Positions 53,780 through 56,774 are shown, numbered from the stretch's first letter. The stretch: DNA of 64,000 bases from an uncultured Bacteroidales bacterium (GCA_944326265.1 CALVDE010000005.1:28729-92728), one strand, 5' to 3'. The notes: a model not told the origin generated them from the letters alone. Numbers and translations: made by a program.

Positions 53780-53890
53780 CTCGATAGCAGGCAATGCAGG
53801 CCAATCTTCACGTTGCTTTTTAGTTGTAACGGATGTGGCTAAAAATTAAGATGTTGGCAAAATCACAGAATTTCAAATGCGGCTAAAATC

Positions 53891-54232: not shown

Positions 54233-54467
54233 CACTTTTGCTGCAGAAATGTGTATGAGAACTTCAACATTCATTTATGTCATGTAAATTTTAATGTCTG
54301 ACGGGAAAGCAAGCTATACGTGAAGAATGCGTGCAAAAGGTCCGAAGTTCACCTTCGGAAGGTGAGCAGGCGGATATTCCGCAGATTTTCGTAAATTTTC
54401 GTAAATTTGCCCAAGTGCTTGTAGCAGACATTATTTCGAGTTACTGATATTATGACCTGAGCAAAAT

Positions 54468-54953
54468 ATGAAATCGTTACGCAAGATATTCAACATCGTG
54501 TCGGCGGCTGTGCTGCTGACCTCTTTCTATCCGCTGTTGTTATGGAACAGGCTGGAAGGTGTGCGGATACCTACCCGTTTCGGTCTAGACGGGACGCCCG
54601 ACCGCTGGGGAAACATGACATCGCTGCTGATTCTCTGCGTTATAGCCACGGCTGCGTATGTGTTCTTCATGGCGTGTCAGCGTGCTCCGCAATTGATGAA
54701 CACGTTGGAGCCGGAGCCGGCGAAGATTACCCCTGGGGTCAGTTCCGCAGTGAAGGACTTTATCTCGCACCTGTGCCTTGTCTGCATGCTGCTTCATTCG
54801 TCCATTTCCAATTCCGGACTGGCGGTAGCTCTCGGAAAGGCGCAGGCCATGCCGTCCTGGATTTACGCAGTGCTCCTTGCTCTAATCGTGATAGCGGCAA
54901 TCGTTCTGACTGTCCGTGTGATCGTGGCGGTGGCTGCTCAACGAAGAGGGTAA
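54468..54953 (+). CDS. DUF1648-like membrane protein
   Basis: IPTRFGLDGTPDRWGN after the first TM helix is the DUF1648/SdpI-N-like motif as I recall it. The protein has four TM helices. Confidence 0.6.
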   Translation: MKSLRKIFNIVSAAVLLTSFYPLLLWNRLEGVRIPTRFGLDGTPDRWGNMTSLLILCVIATAAYVFFMACQRAPQLMNTLEPEPAKITPGVSSAVKDFISHLCLVCMLLHSSISNSGLAVALGKAQAMPSWIYAVLLALIVIAAIVLTVRVIVAVAAQRRG

Positions 54954-55037
54954 CGATCTCGGGCAAATGTGTGAGGGGTTGTTGGTGGGAATCGGAAAGG
55001 CCGTATTAGCAGAATAGTTGTGTACATGTGCTAAAAT

Positions 55038-55332
55038 CATCCCACCTTCTGAAGGTGTGCATAAAATCCCGAGAATCGTCTCGCCTTCGGAAGGTGGAAA
55101 ATAGTGAAATAGTCTGGGAACGGCATTATACGTGCTGTGGCTGTGCCGTTGCTCAATCCCACCTTCTGAAGGTGTGCAGAAAACCCCGAGAATCGTCTCA
55201 GCTTCGGAAGGTGGTAAAAGGTGAGAATGTCTGGGAACGGCATTATACGTGCTGTGGCTGTGCCGTTGCTCAATCCCACCTTCAGAAGGTGTGCAGAAAA
55301 CCCTGTGAATCGTCTCACCTTCGGAAGGTGGG
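55038..55332. repeat. 117-bp tandem repeat, ~2.5 copies, each with two CACCTTC-N-GAAGGTG palindromes plus an AACGGCA/TGCCGTT hairpin
   Basis: The CCCACC unit starts are at 55041, 55158 and 55275, giving an exact 117-nt period. Confidence 0.9.
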
Positions 55333-55353
55333 ACAGCGGGAGAGGAGGCAGGC

Positions 55354-55592
55354 TCAGTGCGTCTTGAGAAATGTATCCAACGCGGTGAAATATTCTTCGG
55401 TATGGGTGAATGCGGCCAGGAGGTGCTTGCAGTCGAATTCCCGGAGGGTGACGAGCGGGGAGGCGGTCAGGGGCCGGGCAGGCGGCGGGGACTGACGGTG
55501 TCTTCCGTGGCGTGGATCAGCAGCATGGGGACGGAGATGTCCTGAGGGGGAAGACGGGGAGCAACAGTATATGCGGCGAAGATGGATATTCT
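55354..55592 (-). pseudogene. 3' remnant of an alpha/beta hydrolase gene, 5'-truncated and frameshifted
   Basis: Minus-strand hand translation gives ...YTVAPRLPPQDISVPMLLIHATEDTVSPRRLPGP* in one frame (stop at 55467-55469) and ...PLVTLREFDCKHLLAAFTHTEEYFTALDTFLKTH* in another (stop at 55354-55356). There is no N-terminal part. Confidence 0.6.
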
Positions 55593-55659
55593 CAAATTGT
55601 GTTTTTGAAAATTTTAAAATTCCTGCGGATTTTATATTTTTACAGAAAATAGAAAAAAT

Positions 55660-56409
55660 ATGAATGTTATAGTCATAGGAGCTACGTCAGGAATAGGAAG
55701 AGCAGTAGCGGAAATTTATATCAGACAGGGTCATAGGGTCGGAATCACAGGCCGGCGGGAAGCTTTGCTCCGTGAGGTTGCGCTTAACGCGCCTGAAGGA
55801 GCTGTTTTCCCAAAGGCATTTGATGTGTCGGAAGACGATGCCGCAGAGCATCTTTCGGAACTGGTGGCGGCAATAGGCGGTGTGGATGTCTGCCTGTATT
55901 CGTCAGGTTACGGTCACACCAATACGGTGCTTGAGCCGTCTTTGGAGCTAGGCCAGGTCGATGTCAATGCCAAAGGCTTTGTCCGTTGCTCTGTCTGGCT
56001 GTTCAACTATTGGGCGGAGCGCGGTGTCAGGGGACATCTGGCCGTAATATCTTCGGTGGCCTCTATTCTTCCTCTGGGTGTATGTCCTGCGTATTCTGCC
56101 ACAAAGAAATTCGAGGCATTCTATGCGCAGACACTGCGTCAGCTGGCCAGAATACGTGAGGCGGATATACGGATTACCGTTATCAAGCCAGGATTTGTGG
56201 ATACTGATTTTATACACGGACGGCATTTCCCCATGACAATACGTAAGGAAAATGCCGCCGCAAGTATAGTTCGTGCGATAAAACGCAATAAAAAAACAGC
56301 GGTGATTGACGGACGATGGGCTGCGCTTGGCGTGCTCATGCGGATGATACCGTCTCCGCTGTGGAATTGGGCGGGCCGTTTTTTCAGACCCTACAAGGAC
56401 ATGTTCTAG
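55660..56409 (+). CDS. SDR family oxidoreductase
   Basis: VIGATSGIGRAVA and the catalytic YSATKKF. Confidence 0.9.
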   Translation: MNVIVIGATSGIGRAVAEIYIRQGHRVGITGRREALLREVALNAPEGAVFPKAFDVSEDDAAEHLSELVAAIGGVDVCLYSSGYGHTNTVLEPSLELGQVDVNAKGFVRCSVWLFNYWAERGVRGHLAVISSVASILPLGVCPAYSATKKFEAFYAQTLRQLARIREADIRITVIKPGFVDTDFIHGRHFPMTIRKENAAASIVRAIKRNKKTAVIDGRWAALGVLMRMIPSPLWNWAGRFFRPYKDMF

Positions 56410-56774
56410 AGCTCTTCAAAATCTACATTTGAGAAAGGAGCGCTTTCCTCCCTGCCGGCAGAGCTGCGGGAATCGTCCTCTGTCTTCTCAACGACAGGGC
56501 ATCTTTCCTTAATATAGGAAATTACTTCTTCGAGACCCTGGGAGAACTTCTCGAAGTCTTCCTTGTAGAGAAAAATTTTATGCTTGTCGTAGGCAAAACG
56601 TCCGTCTTTCTCGATTCTCCTCTTACTTTCTGTTATTGTAAGATAATAGTCATTGCCCTTAGTAGCTTTTACATCGAAAAAGTATGTCCTTTTTCCAGCG
56701 CGGACAGGTCTTGAATATACATCATCACCTCCGCGCTCAATAGCTGCTGAATTATCAATATCCTCCGAATACAT
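56406..56774 (-). CDS. DUF3276 / PUR-alpha-like nucleic-acid-binding protein
   Basis: RAGKRTYFFDVKATKGNDYYLTITESKRR...HKIFLYKEDFEKF. Confidence 0.8.
   Translation of the reverse strand: MYSEDIDNSAAIERGGDDVYSRPVRAGKRTYFFDVKATKGNDYYLTITESKRRIEKDGRFAYDKHKIFLYKEDFEKFSQGLEEVISYIKERCPVVEKTEDDSRSSAGREESAPFSNVDFEEL

What the first reader, a model, noticed from the sequence alone, without database searches (positions are those of the whole stretch)
55038..55332. 117-bp tandem repeat (~2.5 copies) built from paired CACCTTC-N-GAAGGTG palindromes
The unit starts at 55041, 55158 and 55275 give an exact 117-nt period. Each unit has CCCACCTTC(T/A)GAAGGTG, then ~24 nt, then (C/G)(A/C)CTTCGGAAGGTGG(G). The two elements are also reverse complements of each other, so each unit can form either two short hairpins or one ~17-bp long stem. 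A third hairpin, AACGGCA-N18-TGCCGTT, follows. Differences between the copies fall mostly in loops and spacers, while the palindrome arms are largely conserved. That points to selection on structure or on protein binding rather than on coding. The array sits in a 3'-to-3' gap between the DUF1648 gene and a hydrolase remnant.
Basis: seen in the sequence. Interest (0 to 1): 0.6.

Follow-up and report, generated by a model that had tools for sequence, protein, structure and literature searches.

The report
REP-like palindrome array with its transposase
The 117-bp tandem repeat is one of at least 13 copies of a genome-wide family of small non-coding palindromic repeats, and this gut Bacteroidales lineage also carries the matching transposase-like gene, so it is a new variant of the REP/BIME-RAYT repeat systems known from E. 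coli and Pseudomonas.

Summary
Window 55039-55331 holds 2.5 copies of a 117-bp unit. Each unit is CACCTTCNGAAGGTG, 24 nt, the same palindrome, then 63 nt.

The array is not unique. The 2.36-Mb genome has 67 copies of the palindrome in 13 arrays, all with the same geometry. It is the most repeated 13-mer in the genome. The family occurs in about half of the sampled genomes of the genus (Candidatus Coprenecus / "Alistipes sp. CAG:831" group). It was not found in the 16 other Bacteroidales families sampled or in viral contigs.

Palindrome arms diverge about ten times less than the spacers. The spacers show no covariation.

A 312-aa gene elsewhere in the genome (G000:C1:58407-59345) has the HUH and Y-x-x-x-N-P motifs. 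Its closest sequence and fold match is E. coli TnpA_REP (RAYT, PDB 4ER8). Arrays flank it on both sides in all eight genomes that hold an orthologue. Three paralogue clades are each flanked by a different palindromic family.

Best reading: a REP/BIME (REPIN-like) family with a cognate, unusual two-domain RAYT. Arrays change size in 117/118-bp steps (1 to 5 doublets at this locus in eight species).

The scan has reported similar RAYT-bracketed arrays in other Bacteroidales.

The parts
55039..55332 (+). Tandem array of three palindrome doublets (2.5 units of 117 bp). Orientation '+' means the A-rich strand of the inner spacer.
55043..55096 (+). Doublet 1: CACCTTCTGAAGGTG, 24-nt inner spacer (TGCATAAAATCCCGAGAATCGTCT), CGCCTTCGGAAGGTG.
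   Evidence: Folds as a long ssDNA hairpin, -16.1 kcal/mol.
55097..55159 (+). Outer spacer 1 (63 nt). Contains the local hairpin AACGGCA-N18-TGCCGTT at 55120-55151.
   Evidence: Homologous to the outer spacers of other arrays but without a conserved structure.
55160..55213 (+). Doublet 2: CACCTTCTGAAGGTG, 24 nt, CAGCTTCGGAAGGTG.
55214..55276 (+). Outer spacer 2 (63 nt). Local hairpin at 55237-55268.
55277..55330 (+). Doublet 3: CACCTTCAGAAGGTG, 24 nt, CACCTTCGGAAGGTG. The array ends on a doublet, as most arrays of the family do.
54350..54364 (.). Orphan single palindrome CACCTTCGGAAGGTG followed by A-GCAG, upstream of the DUF1648 gene. A single palindrome sits at the equivalent place, 656-697 bp before the array, in the seven relatives that share the locus.
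54468..54953 (+). Upstream neighbour: small membrane protein with a weak DUF1648 match. It ends 85 bp before the array.
55347..55559 (-). 3' remnant (about the last 70 codons) of an alpha/beta-hydrolase gene that is intact (293 aa) in the repeat-free relative G017. Its stop lies about 20 bp from the array end.
53809..53825 (-). One copy of a different palindromic repeat family (AACTAAAAAGCAACGTG, 'fam3'). That family flanks another RAYT-like paralogue at G000:C14:125585-126490.
   Evidence: G000:C5:82537..

Best explanation
The array is a BIME-like cluster of REP-type elements.

SHOWN:
- The building block is a doublet: two copies of the perfect 15-bp palindrome CACCTTC-N-GAAGGTG separated by a semi-conserved 24-nt spacer.
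- A G-N-N-G or C-N-N-C tag (GCAG, GACG or GTAG; CTGC, CGTC or CTAC) sits one base from each palindrome, facing inward.
- Doublets are chained head to tail through a 63/64-nt linker, giving a 117/118-bp period.
- The family is dispersed in intergenic DNA and restricted to part of one genus.
- It co-occurs with, and physically brackets, a gene for a class-2 Y1 HUH enzyme of the RAYT/TnpA_REP type. That enzyme carries an extra ~170-aa C-terminal domain.

INFERRED, by analogy with E. coli TnpA_REP and the IS200/IS605 transposases:
- On single-stranded DNA, for example at replication forks, the doublet folds into a hairpin. This is either a long 7+7-bp stem with a central G-G mismatch or two short hairpins.
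- The N-terminal HUH/Tyr domain recognises the hairpin plus the neighbouring tag. It then cuts and rejoins the strand, which seeds and maintains copies.
- Once at a site, arrays grow and shrink in 117/118-bp steps by slippage or unequal recombination between the identical palindromes.

Any benefit to the host (supercoiling, mRNA ends, recombination hot spots) is not shown.
For: Copy number and geometry:
- 67 palindromes (up to 1 mismatch) in 13 arrays of the 2.36-Mb genome. It is the most repeated 13-mer in the genome.
- Spacings are 39 nt (389 cases) and 78/79 nt (245 cases) across more than 900 copies from many genomes.
- Arrays are mostly even-numbered, from 2 to 16 palindromes.
- All 13 arrays in G000 are intergenic. 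They occur in convergent, divergent and tandem contexts and in both orientations.

The protein:
- NCBIfam REP_Tyr_transpos E 2.3e-11, covering the whole model. Pfam Y1_Tnp 19.6 bits.
- H51, H53, Y108 and N112 are invariant and P113 is nearly so (at least 90%) in 28 homologues.
- The top PDB match of the sequence profile is 4ER8, E. coli TnpA_REP, E 1.8e-7.
- The AlphaFold model has pLDDT 87. Its top Foldseek hit is 4er8_A (E 1.5e-6, TM 0.69), followed by the IS608 and ISDra2 TnpA structures.

Association of gene and repeat:
- In 8 of 8 genomes with a full-length orthologue (60-100% identity) an array lies ~1.2 kb upstream, and in 7 of them a second array starts ~36 bp after the stop codon. In G013 only a single palindrome remains there.
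- 5 of the 13 arrays lie within 12 kb of the gene.
- Every genome with 5 or more doublets has an orthologue at 57% identity or more, in some cases fragmentary. No repeat-free genome has one.
- Three other paralogue clades are each flanked on both sides by their own palindromic family. Fam2 CCACAACGGCAGC hairpins flank the G000 paralogue and also its orthologue in the palindrome-free genome G008. Fam3 is AACTAAAAAGCAACGTG. A GAGAGTGTACC family flanks the 47%-identity clade.
- Orthologues that keep the same palindrome keep 81-89% identity in the catalytic domain but only ~40% in the C-terminal domain.

Sequence constraint and array dynamics:
- Arms diverge about ten times less than spacers.
- Double changes in the arms are symmetric in 6 of 15 cases (about 1.2 expected), and 4 of them preserve the palindrome.
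- At the window's orthologous locus the array has 1, 2, 2, 2, 3, 3, 4 and 5 doublets in eight species.
Against: - No cleavage, excision or new insertion was observed.
- I found no clean empty site or target-site signature. The best candidate site had diverged too far to read.
- Most arrays sit at conserved positions in species that are ~90% identical. Current mobility may therefore be low, and co-occurrence with the gene is confounded by shared ancestry.
- The protein scores below the curated cut-offs of both family models. It lacks the conserved Trp motif of described RAYTs (LGE in its place).
- The tag is not a 5' GTAG.
- Array orientation shows no replichore pattern in the complete chromosome G041: 9 loci '+', 10 '-', interleaved.
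- A few doublets persist in genomes without a close orthologue, for example G024 (complete genome, 1 doublet).
Confidence: 0.75

Rival explanations
1. The palindromes are double-stranded binding sites for a dimeric DNA-binding protein, such as a regulator or nucleoid-associated protein, or the HTH-like C-terminal domain of the RAYT-like protein. The arrays would act as phased binding platforms for chromosome structuring, insulation or titration, and would not be mobile DNA.
For: - A perfect 7-N1-7 palindrome is typical of homodimer operators.
- The strictly fixed spacings of 39 and 78/79 bp and the 117/118-bp period (about 11 helical turns) fit phased binding.
- Single mismatches pile up at the central positions 7 and 9.
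- The spacers show no RNA-like covariation.
- Array positions are conserved between species.
Against: - Arrays lie in every kind of intergenic context, with no link to promoters.
- Copy number at one locus varies from 1 to 5 between species, which is odd for a tuned regulatory site.
- The association with HUH/Tyr genes is repeated for four different palindromic families.
- The palindrome co-conserves with the catalytic domain, not with the C-terminal domain.
- This rival does not exclude a RAYT origin.
Confidence: 0.1
2. The arrays act at the RNA level. Transcribed as 3' or 5' UTR parts, the hairpins would stabilise mRNA ends, terminate transcription or form a small RNA.
For: - The array folds well as RNA (-127 kcal/mol, z -5.45).
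- It lies in a 3'-to-3' gap here.
- On the minus strand, short hairpins followed by T-rich runs score as terminator-like.
- REP elements of E. coli are known to affect mRNA stability (background cited in PMC3733652).
Against: - No Rfam family matches.
- There is no covariation outside the palindromes.
- Orientation relative to the neighbouring genes is inconsistent, and three of the G000 arrays lie between divergent genes.
- No T-run follows the palindromes in the consensus.
Confidence: 0.07
3. The repeats are MITE-like elements mobilised by some other transposase, for example an IS that also breaks the assembly. Their closeness to the RAYT-like gene would then be inherited synteny only.
For: - The commonest array is a 172-bp module with a doublet at each end.
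- Several arrays and another repeat lie at contig ends.
- The flanking arrangement is syntenic, so the eight genomes are not independent observations.
Against: - The two end doublets are direct repeats, not inverted.
- No target-site duplication was seen.
- The same bracketing by a specific palindromic family recurs for three other paralogue clades at other loci, which inherited synteny at one locus cannot explain.
Confidence: 0.05

Closest known systems
REP/BIME elements of E. coli with TnpA_REP (RAYT, YafM; PDB 4ER8), the 'REPtron' arrangement
   Same: - Short extragenic palindromes in high copy number.
- Palindromes joined by linkers of fixed length into tandem clusters of variable copy number, as in BIME-2.
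- A class-2 Y1 HUH gene (HuH plus Y-x-x-x-N-P) bracketed by its own repeats.
- The closest sequence and fold match of the protein is 4ER8.
   Different: - The palindrome is perfect and only 15 bp, whereas E. coli REPs are ~35-bp imperfect palindromes.
- The tag is G-N-N-G or C-N-N-C one base from the stem, not a 5' GTAG.
- The unit is 117/118 bp with a 63/64-nt linker.
- The protein is 312 aa with an extra ~170-aa C-terminal domain. It lacks the conserved Trp motif and falls below the family cut-offs.
REPIN-RAYT systems of Pseudomonas (Bertels and Rainey 2011, PMC3116915; RAREFAN preprint 10.1101/2022.05.22.493013)
   Same: - The doublet of two REPs can form a long hairpin.
- One cognate RAYT per family, and several RAYT/REP pairs per genome.
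- Vertical inheritance, with a few relic copies remaining where the RAYT is missing.
   Different: - Here both arms are the same self-complementary sequence, so the long hairpin carries a central G-G or C-C mismatch in 91% of doublets.
- Doublets are usually chained into arrays rather than dispersed singly.
TnpA_Y1 subclasses of Quentin et al. 2018 (PMC6006769): 2.6 (Bacteroidetes, 'atypical secondary structures') and 2.1 (long, C-terminal HTH, no REP found)
   Same: - Class-2 signature HuH plus Y---NP.
- A Bacteroidetes host and atypical flanking structures, as in subclass 2.6.
- A long protein with an NHVH-type motif and a helical C-terminal domain, as in subclass 2.1.
   Different: - Subclass 2.6 proteins are ~179 aa with WQ and YIH[QN]NP motifs. 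This protein is 312 aa with LGE and YVLRNP.
- No REPs were found for subclass 2.1, whereas here the arrays are obvious.
- No Bac_DnaA_C match was detected.
- Subclass membership could not be tested because the subclass profiles are not available here.
CGTC-tagged REP super-family (Di Nocera et al. 2013, PMC3733652)
   Same: - Short stem-loops with an unpaired tetranucleotide tag. CGTC is one of the three common tags here.
- Head-to-head dimers.
- The super-family is reported in Bacteroidetes.
   Different: - Described CGTC REPs have 8-9-bp stems and 4-5-nt loops, and 'apparently lack a dedicated transposase'.
- Here the tag is degenerate (CTGC about as common as CGTC, both commoner than CTAC) and a dedicated RAYT-like gene is present.

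Membership tests
REP/REPIN-RAYT system | Short palindromic sequence repeated many times, almost only in extragenic DNA | tested here: met
   67 copies in 13 arrays in 2.36 Mb, against about 0.4 expected by chance (my estimate). All arrays are intergenic.
REP/REPIN-RAYT system | The genome encodes a RAYT: a Y1 HUH enzyme with HuH and Y-x-x-x-N-P motifs, related to TnpA_REP | tested here: met
   H51, H53, Y108 and N112 are invariant and P113 nearly so. NCBIfam REP_Tyr_transpos E 2.3e-11, but below the equivalog cut-off (43.8 against 80 bits). Best PDB match by sequence profile and by fold is 4ER8.
REP/REPIN-RAYT system | The RAYT gene is flanked by its cognate repeats | tested here: met
   An upstream array in 8 of 8 genomes with a full-length orthologue, and a downstream array ~36 bp after the stop in 7 of them; G013 keeps only a single palindrome there. 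The same pattern holds for three other paralogue clades, each with another repeat family.
REP/REPIN-RAYT system | Repeat and RAYT occur together across genomes | tested here: met
   Genomes with 5 or more doublets all have an orthologue at 57% identity or more. The 12 repeat-free genomes have none. The genomes are related, so this is not a statistical proof.
REP/REPIN-RAYT system | Conserved 5' GTAG guide tetranucleotide at the foot of the hairpin | tested here: not met
   The conserved positions are G-N-N-G 3' of the first palindrome and C-N-N-C 5' of the second, each one base away. The tags are GCAG, GACG or GTAG and CTGC, CGTC or CTAC. This feature defines the GTAG super-family, not all REPs (PMC3733652, PMC6006769).
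REP/REPIN-RAYT system | The RAYT binds and cleaves the REP in single-stranded form, and the repeats are mobilised | not testable with these tools
No clean insertion polymorphism was found.
BIME (E. coli) | Clusters of REPs joined by linkers of defined length and sequence, with variable copy number | tested here: met
   24-nt and 63/64-nt linkers with recognisable consensus sequences. Arrays hold 1 to 8 doublets. The orthologous locus holds 1 to 5.
BIME (E. coli) | Linker or REP binding by IHF, gyrase or Pol I | not tested
   No way to test this here.
CRISPR array | Identical repeats separated by unique spacers; cas genes or a leader nearby | tested here: not met
   Spacers within an array are near-identical (92%) and are homologous between arrays. 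The unit holds two palindromes with alternating 24-nt and 63-nt gaps.
Known structured RNA (Rfam) | Match to a covariance model, or covariation that supports a fold | tested here: not met
   No Rfam match better than E = 5. Pairing at candidate stem extensions is below expectation. RNAalifold finds only palindrome-to-palindrome pairing.
MITE | Terminal inverted repeats and a target-site duplication | tested here: not met
   The end doublets are in direct orientation. No duplicated flank was seen by eye in the printed flanks of the 13 arrays.

The most novel reading that the evidence does not exclude
The 312-aa proteins form a distinct two-domain branch of the RAYT enzymes. The library holds 81 clusters (at 50% identity) scoring E of 1e-30 or better, nearly all of them full-length. 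In the order-wide sample, the full-length form was seen only in this bacterial family. The branch has diversified within one genus into at least four enzyme/palindrome pairs with separate specificities. The palindrome family studied here would then be a CGTC/CTGC-tagged REP type that does have a dedicated enzyme, which Di Nocera et al. (PMC3733652) reported as missing for CGTC REPs. The fixed 39/78-bp phasing would reflect cooperative binding through the extra C-terminal domain. That would make the arrays domesticated chromosome-structuring sites and not merely selfish DNA.
Probability: 0.15. Interest if true: 0.6.

Novelty: new variant of a known kind. Interest (0 to 1): 0.4.

Why it matters
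REP/RAYT systems have been studied almost only in Proteobacteria. For Bacteroidetes the literature notes only 'atypical secondary structures' next to short RAYTs (PMC6006769).

- This uncultured gut lineage carries several paralogous RAYT-like enzymes of an undescribed two-domain type. Each is bracketed by its own palindromic repeat. That is a natural series for asking how a Y1 HUH enzyme reads its hairpin and how enzyme and repeat change together.
- In practice, the arrays explain several contig breaks in these metagenome-assembled genomes.
- They produce long spurious ORFs, for example 155 aa across this array.
- Their copy number varies between species, so they could serve as typing markers.

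The finding does not change what is known about how such systems work.

Tried and rejected
- **Coding repeat:** rejected. Most arrays have a 118-bp period, and the ORFs across the array exist on both strands.
- **CRISPR-like array:** rejected, because the spacers are homologous to each other.
- **Known RNA family:** none found.
- **Stem extension into the inner spacer:** pairing at positions 18-37 and 19-36 is below expectation.
- **Conserved structure in the outer spacer:** none.
- **Directional terminator or promoter role:** orientation and context are inconsistent. The terminator-like hits are weak, and the promoter scan uses a sigma-70 consensus that does not suit Bacteroidota.
- **Replication-strand bias:** 30 forward and 26 reverse units in the complete chromosome G041, with loci interleaved, so I did not go on to GC skew.
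- **Clean empty sites:** flanks of 114 arrays from relatives were mapped onto G000. The one candidate (L132 against C1:151392) has intergenic DNA too diverged to define ends.
- **Single-sequence search of the PDB:** nothing found. Only the profile search reached 4ER8.
- **Homology between this family's outer spacer and the fam2 spacer:** best local alignment scores were 21-24, against a shuffle maximum of 23-25. This is marginal and I do not claim it.
- **Viral contigs:** no match.
- **Literature search for the palindrome letters:** no paper holds them.

Full report
**1. The observation.**
Tandem Repeats Finder reports one strong array in the window: 55039-55331, period 117, 2.5 copies, 92% matches, score 500. 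The sequence and a pattern search place CACCTTCNGAAGGTG (up to 1 mismatch) at 55043, 55082, 55160, 55199, 55277 and 55316, with one more copy at 54350. That is seven hits against 0.02 expected from shuffles.

The unit is palindrome, 24 nt, palindrome, 63 nt. As single-stranded DNA a doublet folds into one long hairpin (-16.1 kcal/mol, z -6.15). One palindrome alone gives a 6-bp hairpin with a 3-nt loop.

The 'third hairpin' AACGGCA-N18-TGCCGTT is present in both full units. It is not significant by itself (z -1.86).

The neighbours are as described. Upstream is a weak DUF1648 protein. On the other strand is the last ~70 codons of an alpha/beta-hydrolase gene that is intact (293 aa) in a relative.

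**2. The array is one member of a dispersed family.**
The window is G000:C5:28729-92728 of a 2.36-Mb, 24-contig genome. That genome has 67 palindromes with up to 1 mismatch. I estimate about 0.4 would be expected by chance.

- They form 13 arrays plus singles. Five of the arrays lie within 12 kb on contig C1.
- The palindrome is the most frequent 13-mer in the genome.
- Every array has the same geometry and starts and ends on a doublet.
- Over more than 900 copies from many genomes, the start-to-start gaps are 39 nt (389 cases), 78 nt (135), 79 nt (110) and 38 nt (24). Little else occurs.
- Array sizes are mostly even, from 2 to 16 palindromes. The 172-bp two-doublet module is the commonest.
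- The inner spacer has the consensus A-G-M-M-G-AAAA-Y-GCGGG-AAA-W-C-K-G-C-W.
- The outer spacer is 63 or 64 nt. It has a recognisable consensus, GGAaaGGtACGgTGGaaGGgGAAACGCGGCTACAGg.gGCTCTCG.GGCGGTGctGCtTCTGCg.
- Both array orientations occur.

**3. Distribution.**
Twelve of 24 sampled genomes of the genus hold doublets, from 1 to 90 per genome. None of the 16 other sampled families of the order does.

All the listed records are titled Candidatus Coprenecus spp., 'Alistipes sp. CAG:831', uncultured Alistipes or Bacteroidales MAGs, plus one Candidatus Cryptobacteroides merdigallinarum contig. The flanks of that last contig are 99-100% identical to G000.

Viral contigs have no match. No paper in the library holds the palindrome letters.

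**4. What is conserved.**
- Between adjacent units of the same array, the arms differ at 1.5% of sites, the inner spacer at 12.4% and the outer spacer at 7.7%.
- Between arrays the figures are 3% for arms, 36% for the inner spacer and 44% for the outer spacer.
- I also ran a test that does not select on the palindrome being scored. It anchors on the two palindromes one period apart. The middle palindrome is perfect in 354 of 414 cases and has one mismatch in 58.
- Single mismatches concentrate at positions 7 and 9, the innermost pair, and at positions 2 and 14.
- Of 15 double mutants, 6 hit symmetric positions (about 1.2 expected) and 4 keep the palindrome, for example CTCCTTCGGAAGGAG. The sample is small and partly non-independent.
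- The centre base is the same in both palindromes of a doublet in 239 of 279 cases (G/G 190, C/C 49), and only 26 doublets have complementary centres (G/C or C/G). The long hairpin therefore has a central mismatch in 91% of doublets.
- Pairing does not extend into the inner spacer beyond one G-C pair. RNAalifold finds no conserved structure in the outer spacer.

So the constraint is on the palindromes, their immediate G-N-N-G or C-N-N-C neighbours and the spacing.

**5. The partner gene.**
A search of the genome with Pfam Y1_Tnp gave one weak hit (21.7 bits), inside a 312-aa ORF at G000:C1:58407-59345. This ORF lies between two of the arrays.

- The protein matches NCBIfam REP_Tyr_transpos over the whole model (E 2.3e-11, 43.8 bits, cut-off 80). 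It matches Pfam Y1_Tnp at 19.6 bits (cut-off 23).
- In an alignment of 28 homologues H51, H53 (HuH), Y108 and N112 are invariant and P113 is conserved in at least 90%. Together they form Y-V-L-R-N-P, the class-2 'Y---NP' signature of PMC6006769.
- The Trp motif of described RAYTs is replaced by L-G-E.
- The profile's best PDB match is 4ER8, E. coli TnpA_REP bound to a REP hairpin (E 1.8e-7). The ISDra2 transposases come next.
- The AlphaFold model is confident (pLDDT 87, pTM 0.89). Its best Foldseek match is again 4er8_A (E 1.5e-6, TM 0.69 on the target), followed by the IS608, ISDra2 and IS200 TnpA structures.
- Residues ~140-312 form a helical domain with no PDB or Pfam match.
- In a sample of 120 other families of the order, only ~200-aa proteins matching the N-terminal domain were found. 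The full-length form was seen only in the window's own family.
- A search of 1.8 billion cluster representatives finds 81 with E of 1e-30 or better, nearly all 300-320 aa and aligned end to end.

**6. Association of gene and repeat.**
- In all eight genomes with a full-length orthologue (95-100% identity in six, 60-62% in two) an array lies ~1.2 kb upstream. In seven of them another array starts ~36 bp after the stop codon, in '+' orientation; in G013 only a single palindrome remains there. Copy numbers differ between genomes. These are syntenic loci, so they count as one old arrangement that has been kept.
- Every genome with 5 or more doublets has an orthologue at 57% identity or more. In G004 it is cut by a contig end, in G006 and G011 it is fragmentary, and in G013 it has one in-frame TAA. 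None of the 12 repeat-free genomes has one.
- Independent support comes from the paralogues.
  - In G000 the 42% paralogue (C17:80241) is flanked on both sides by CCACAACGGCAGC...GCTGCCGTTGTGG hairpins. There are 28 half-sites genome-wide, and they form 105-bp tandem arrays.
  - The 33% paralogue (C14:125585) is flanked on both sides by AACTAAAAAGCAACGTG inverted pairs 160 bp apart, 17 sites in all.
  - The orthologue of the first paralogue in G008, a genome without the window's palindrome, has the same hairpins on both sides.
  - The 47% clade in G017, G021, G024 and G042 is flanked by a fourth family, GAGAGTGTACC / GGTACACTCTC.
- Orthologues that keep the window's palindrome keep 81-89% identity in residues 1-135 but only ~40% in the C-terminal domain.

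**7. Behaviour over time.**
- At the window's own locus, eight species share the orphan palindrome, the DUF1648 gene and the array. The array has 1 (G003), 2 (G013, G006, G010), 3 (G000, G020), 4 (G041) and 5 (G018) doublets.
- In the repeat-free genomes G017 and G009 the whole segment 53902-55346 is missing. About 160 bp holding a copy of the AACTAAAAAGCAACGTG family separates the protease gene from an intact hydrolase gene.
- The right end of the array lies ~15 bp from that breakpoint.
- Most other arrays are at conserved positions in species ~90% identical.
- Arrays lie in convergent, divergent and tandem intergenic gaps, with no fixed orientation relative to the neighbouring genes.
- In the complete chromosome G041, about 19 loci are split 9 '+' to 10 '-' and interleaved.
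- I found no clean empty site.

**8. Reading.**
Shown:
- a genus-restricted, intergenic family of palindrome doublets with a strict geometry;
- strong constraint on the palindromes;
- change in array copy number between species;
- a specific, repeated association with RAYT-type genes.

Inferred from the E. coli TnpA_REP and IS200/IS605 precedents:
- the doublet folds on single-stranded DNA;
- the HUH/Tyr domain recognises it and cuts and rejoins it;
- arrays then expand and contract by slippage or unequal recombination.

The rivals are given with their tests in the Rival explanations section. They are a phased double-stranded binding platform, an RNA-level role, and a MITE moved by another enzyme. 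None explains the four separate enzyme/repeat pairs as well.

**9. Comparison and novelty.**
The system works like REP/BIME-RAYT ('REPtron') and REPIN-RAYT systems (PMC3116915, PMC3337134, PMC6006769). It differs in four ways:
- a perfect 15-bp self-complementary arm;
- a degenerate CTGC, CGTC or CTAC tag in place of 5' GTAG (PMC3733652 reports that CGTC-tagged REPs lack a dedicated transposase);
- the 117/118-bp composite unit;
- a two-domain enzyme that falls below the curated family cut-offs.

I rate it a new variant of a known kind. This scan has already reported RAYT-like genes bracketed by phased hairpin arrays, and REP/BIME-like arrays, in other Bacteroidales genomes. None of those involves this protein.

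**10. Limits.**
- The genomes compared are related, and many are incomplete MAGs in which repeats are under-assembled.
- Several arrays in G000 sit at contig ends, so copy numbers are minimum values.

Noticed in passing
G000:C17:79939-81432 (outside the window): A second RAYT-like paralogue (42% identical, HUH = T-H-A-H, Tyr motif kept) is flanked on both sides by CCACAACGGCAGC / GCTGCCGTTGTGG hairpins (12-bp stem, ~16-nt loop). These hairpins also form 105-bp tandem arrays, for example six units at C4:123781-124306.
   Followed up: partly
window 53809-53825; G000:C14:125202-126805: A third repeat family, AACTAAAAAGCAACGTG, occurs as inverted pairs 160 bp apart (17 sites). It flanks a 33%-identical RAYT-like paralogue. 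One copy lies in the ORF-free region just after the protease gene of the window. In G017 and G009 the same family fills the gap where G000 has the DUF1648 segment.
   Followed up: partly
window 55560-55660: A rearrangement breakpoint. The hydrolase gene is cut to its last ~70 codons. The SDR and DUF3276 genes that follow (55660-56774) lie on other contigs, or far away, in all relatives, at only 73-80% identity.
   Followed up: partly
G000, about 50 bp from 24 contig ends (e.g. C5:54, C5:107834, C17:144929): A ~70-nt sequence (GAGGTGTACCAAAAAAGTTGGACACAAGAG...) sits at nearly every contig end. It is probably the terminus of a multi-copy element that breaks the assembly.
   Followed up: no
L139:3591-3683 (URSC01000006.1 = G018) against G000:C17:80075-81459: Where G000 has the second RAYT-like paralogue with its hairpins, G018 has a three-palindrome array of the CACCTTCGGAAGGTG family and one fam2 hairpin, but no gene. 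Different repeat families therefore occupy the same intergenic hot spots.
   Followed up: partly
G013:C19:53462-54397 (L147): The RAYT-like orthologue of Ca. Coprenecus merdigallinarum has one in-frame TAA, yet that genome holds 54 doublets. This is either a recent inactivation or an assembly error.
   Followed up: no
window 55028-55495 (+) and 55037-55318 (-): The array creates long spurious ORFs (155 and 93 aa) on both strands. Gene callers may annotate them as repeat proteins.
   Followed up: yes
Outer spacers of the palindrome family against spacers of the fam2 arrays: The two share short motifs (AGAAsGCCTGTAG, GCGTTTCC). Local alignment scores reach 21-24, against a shuffle maximum of 23-25. 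This hints that the two families descend from one modular element, but it is not significant.
   Followed up: partly
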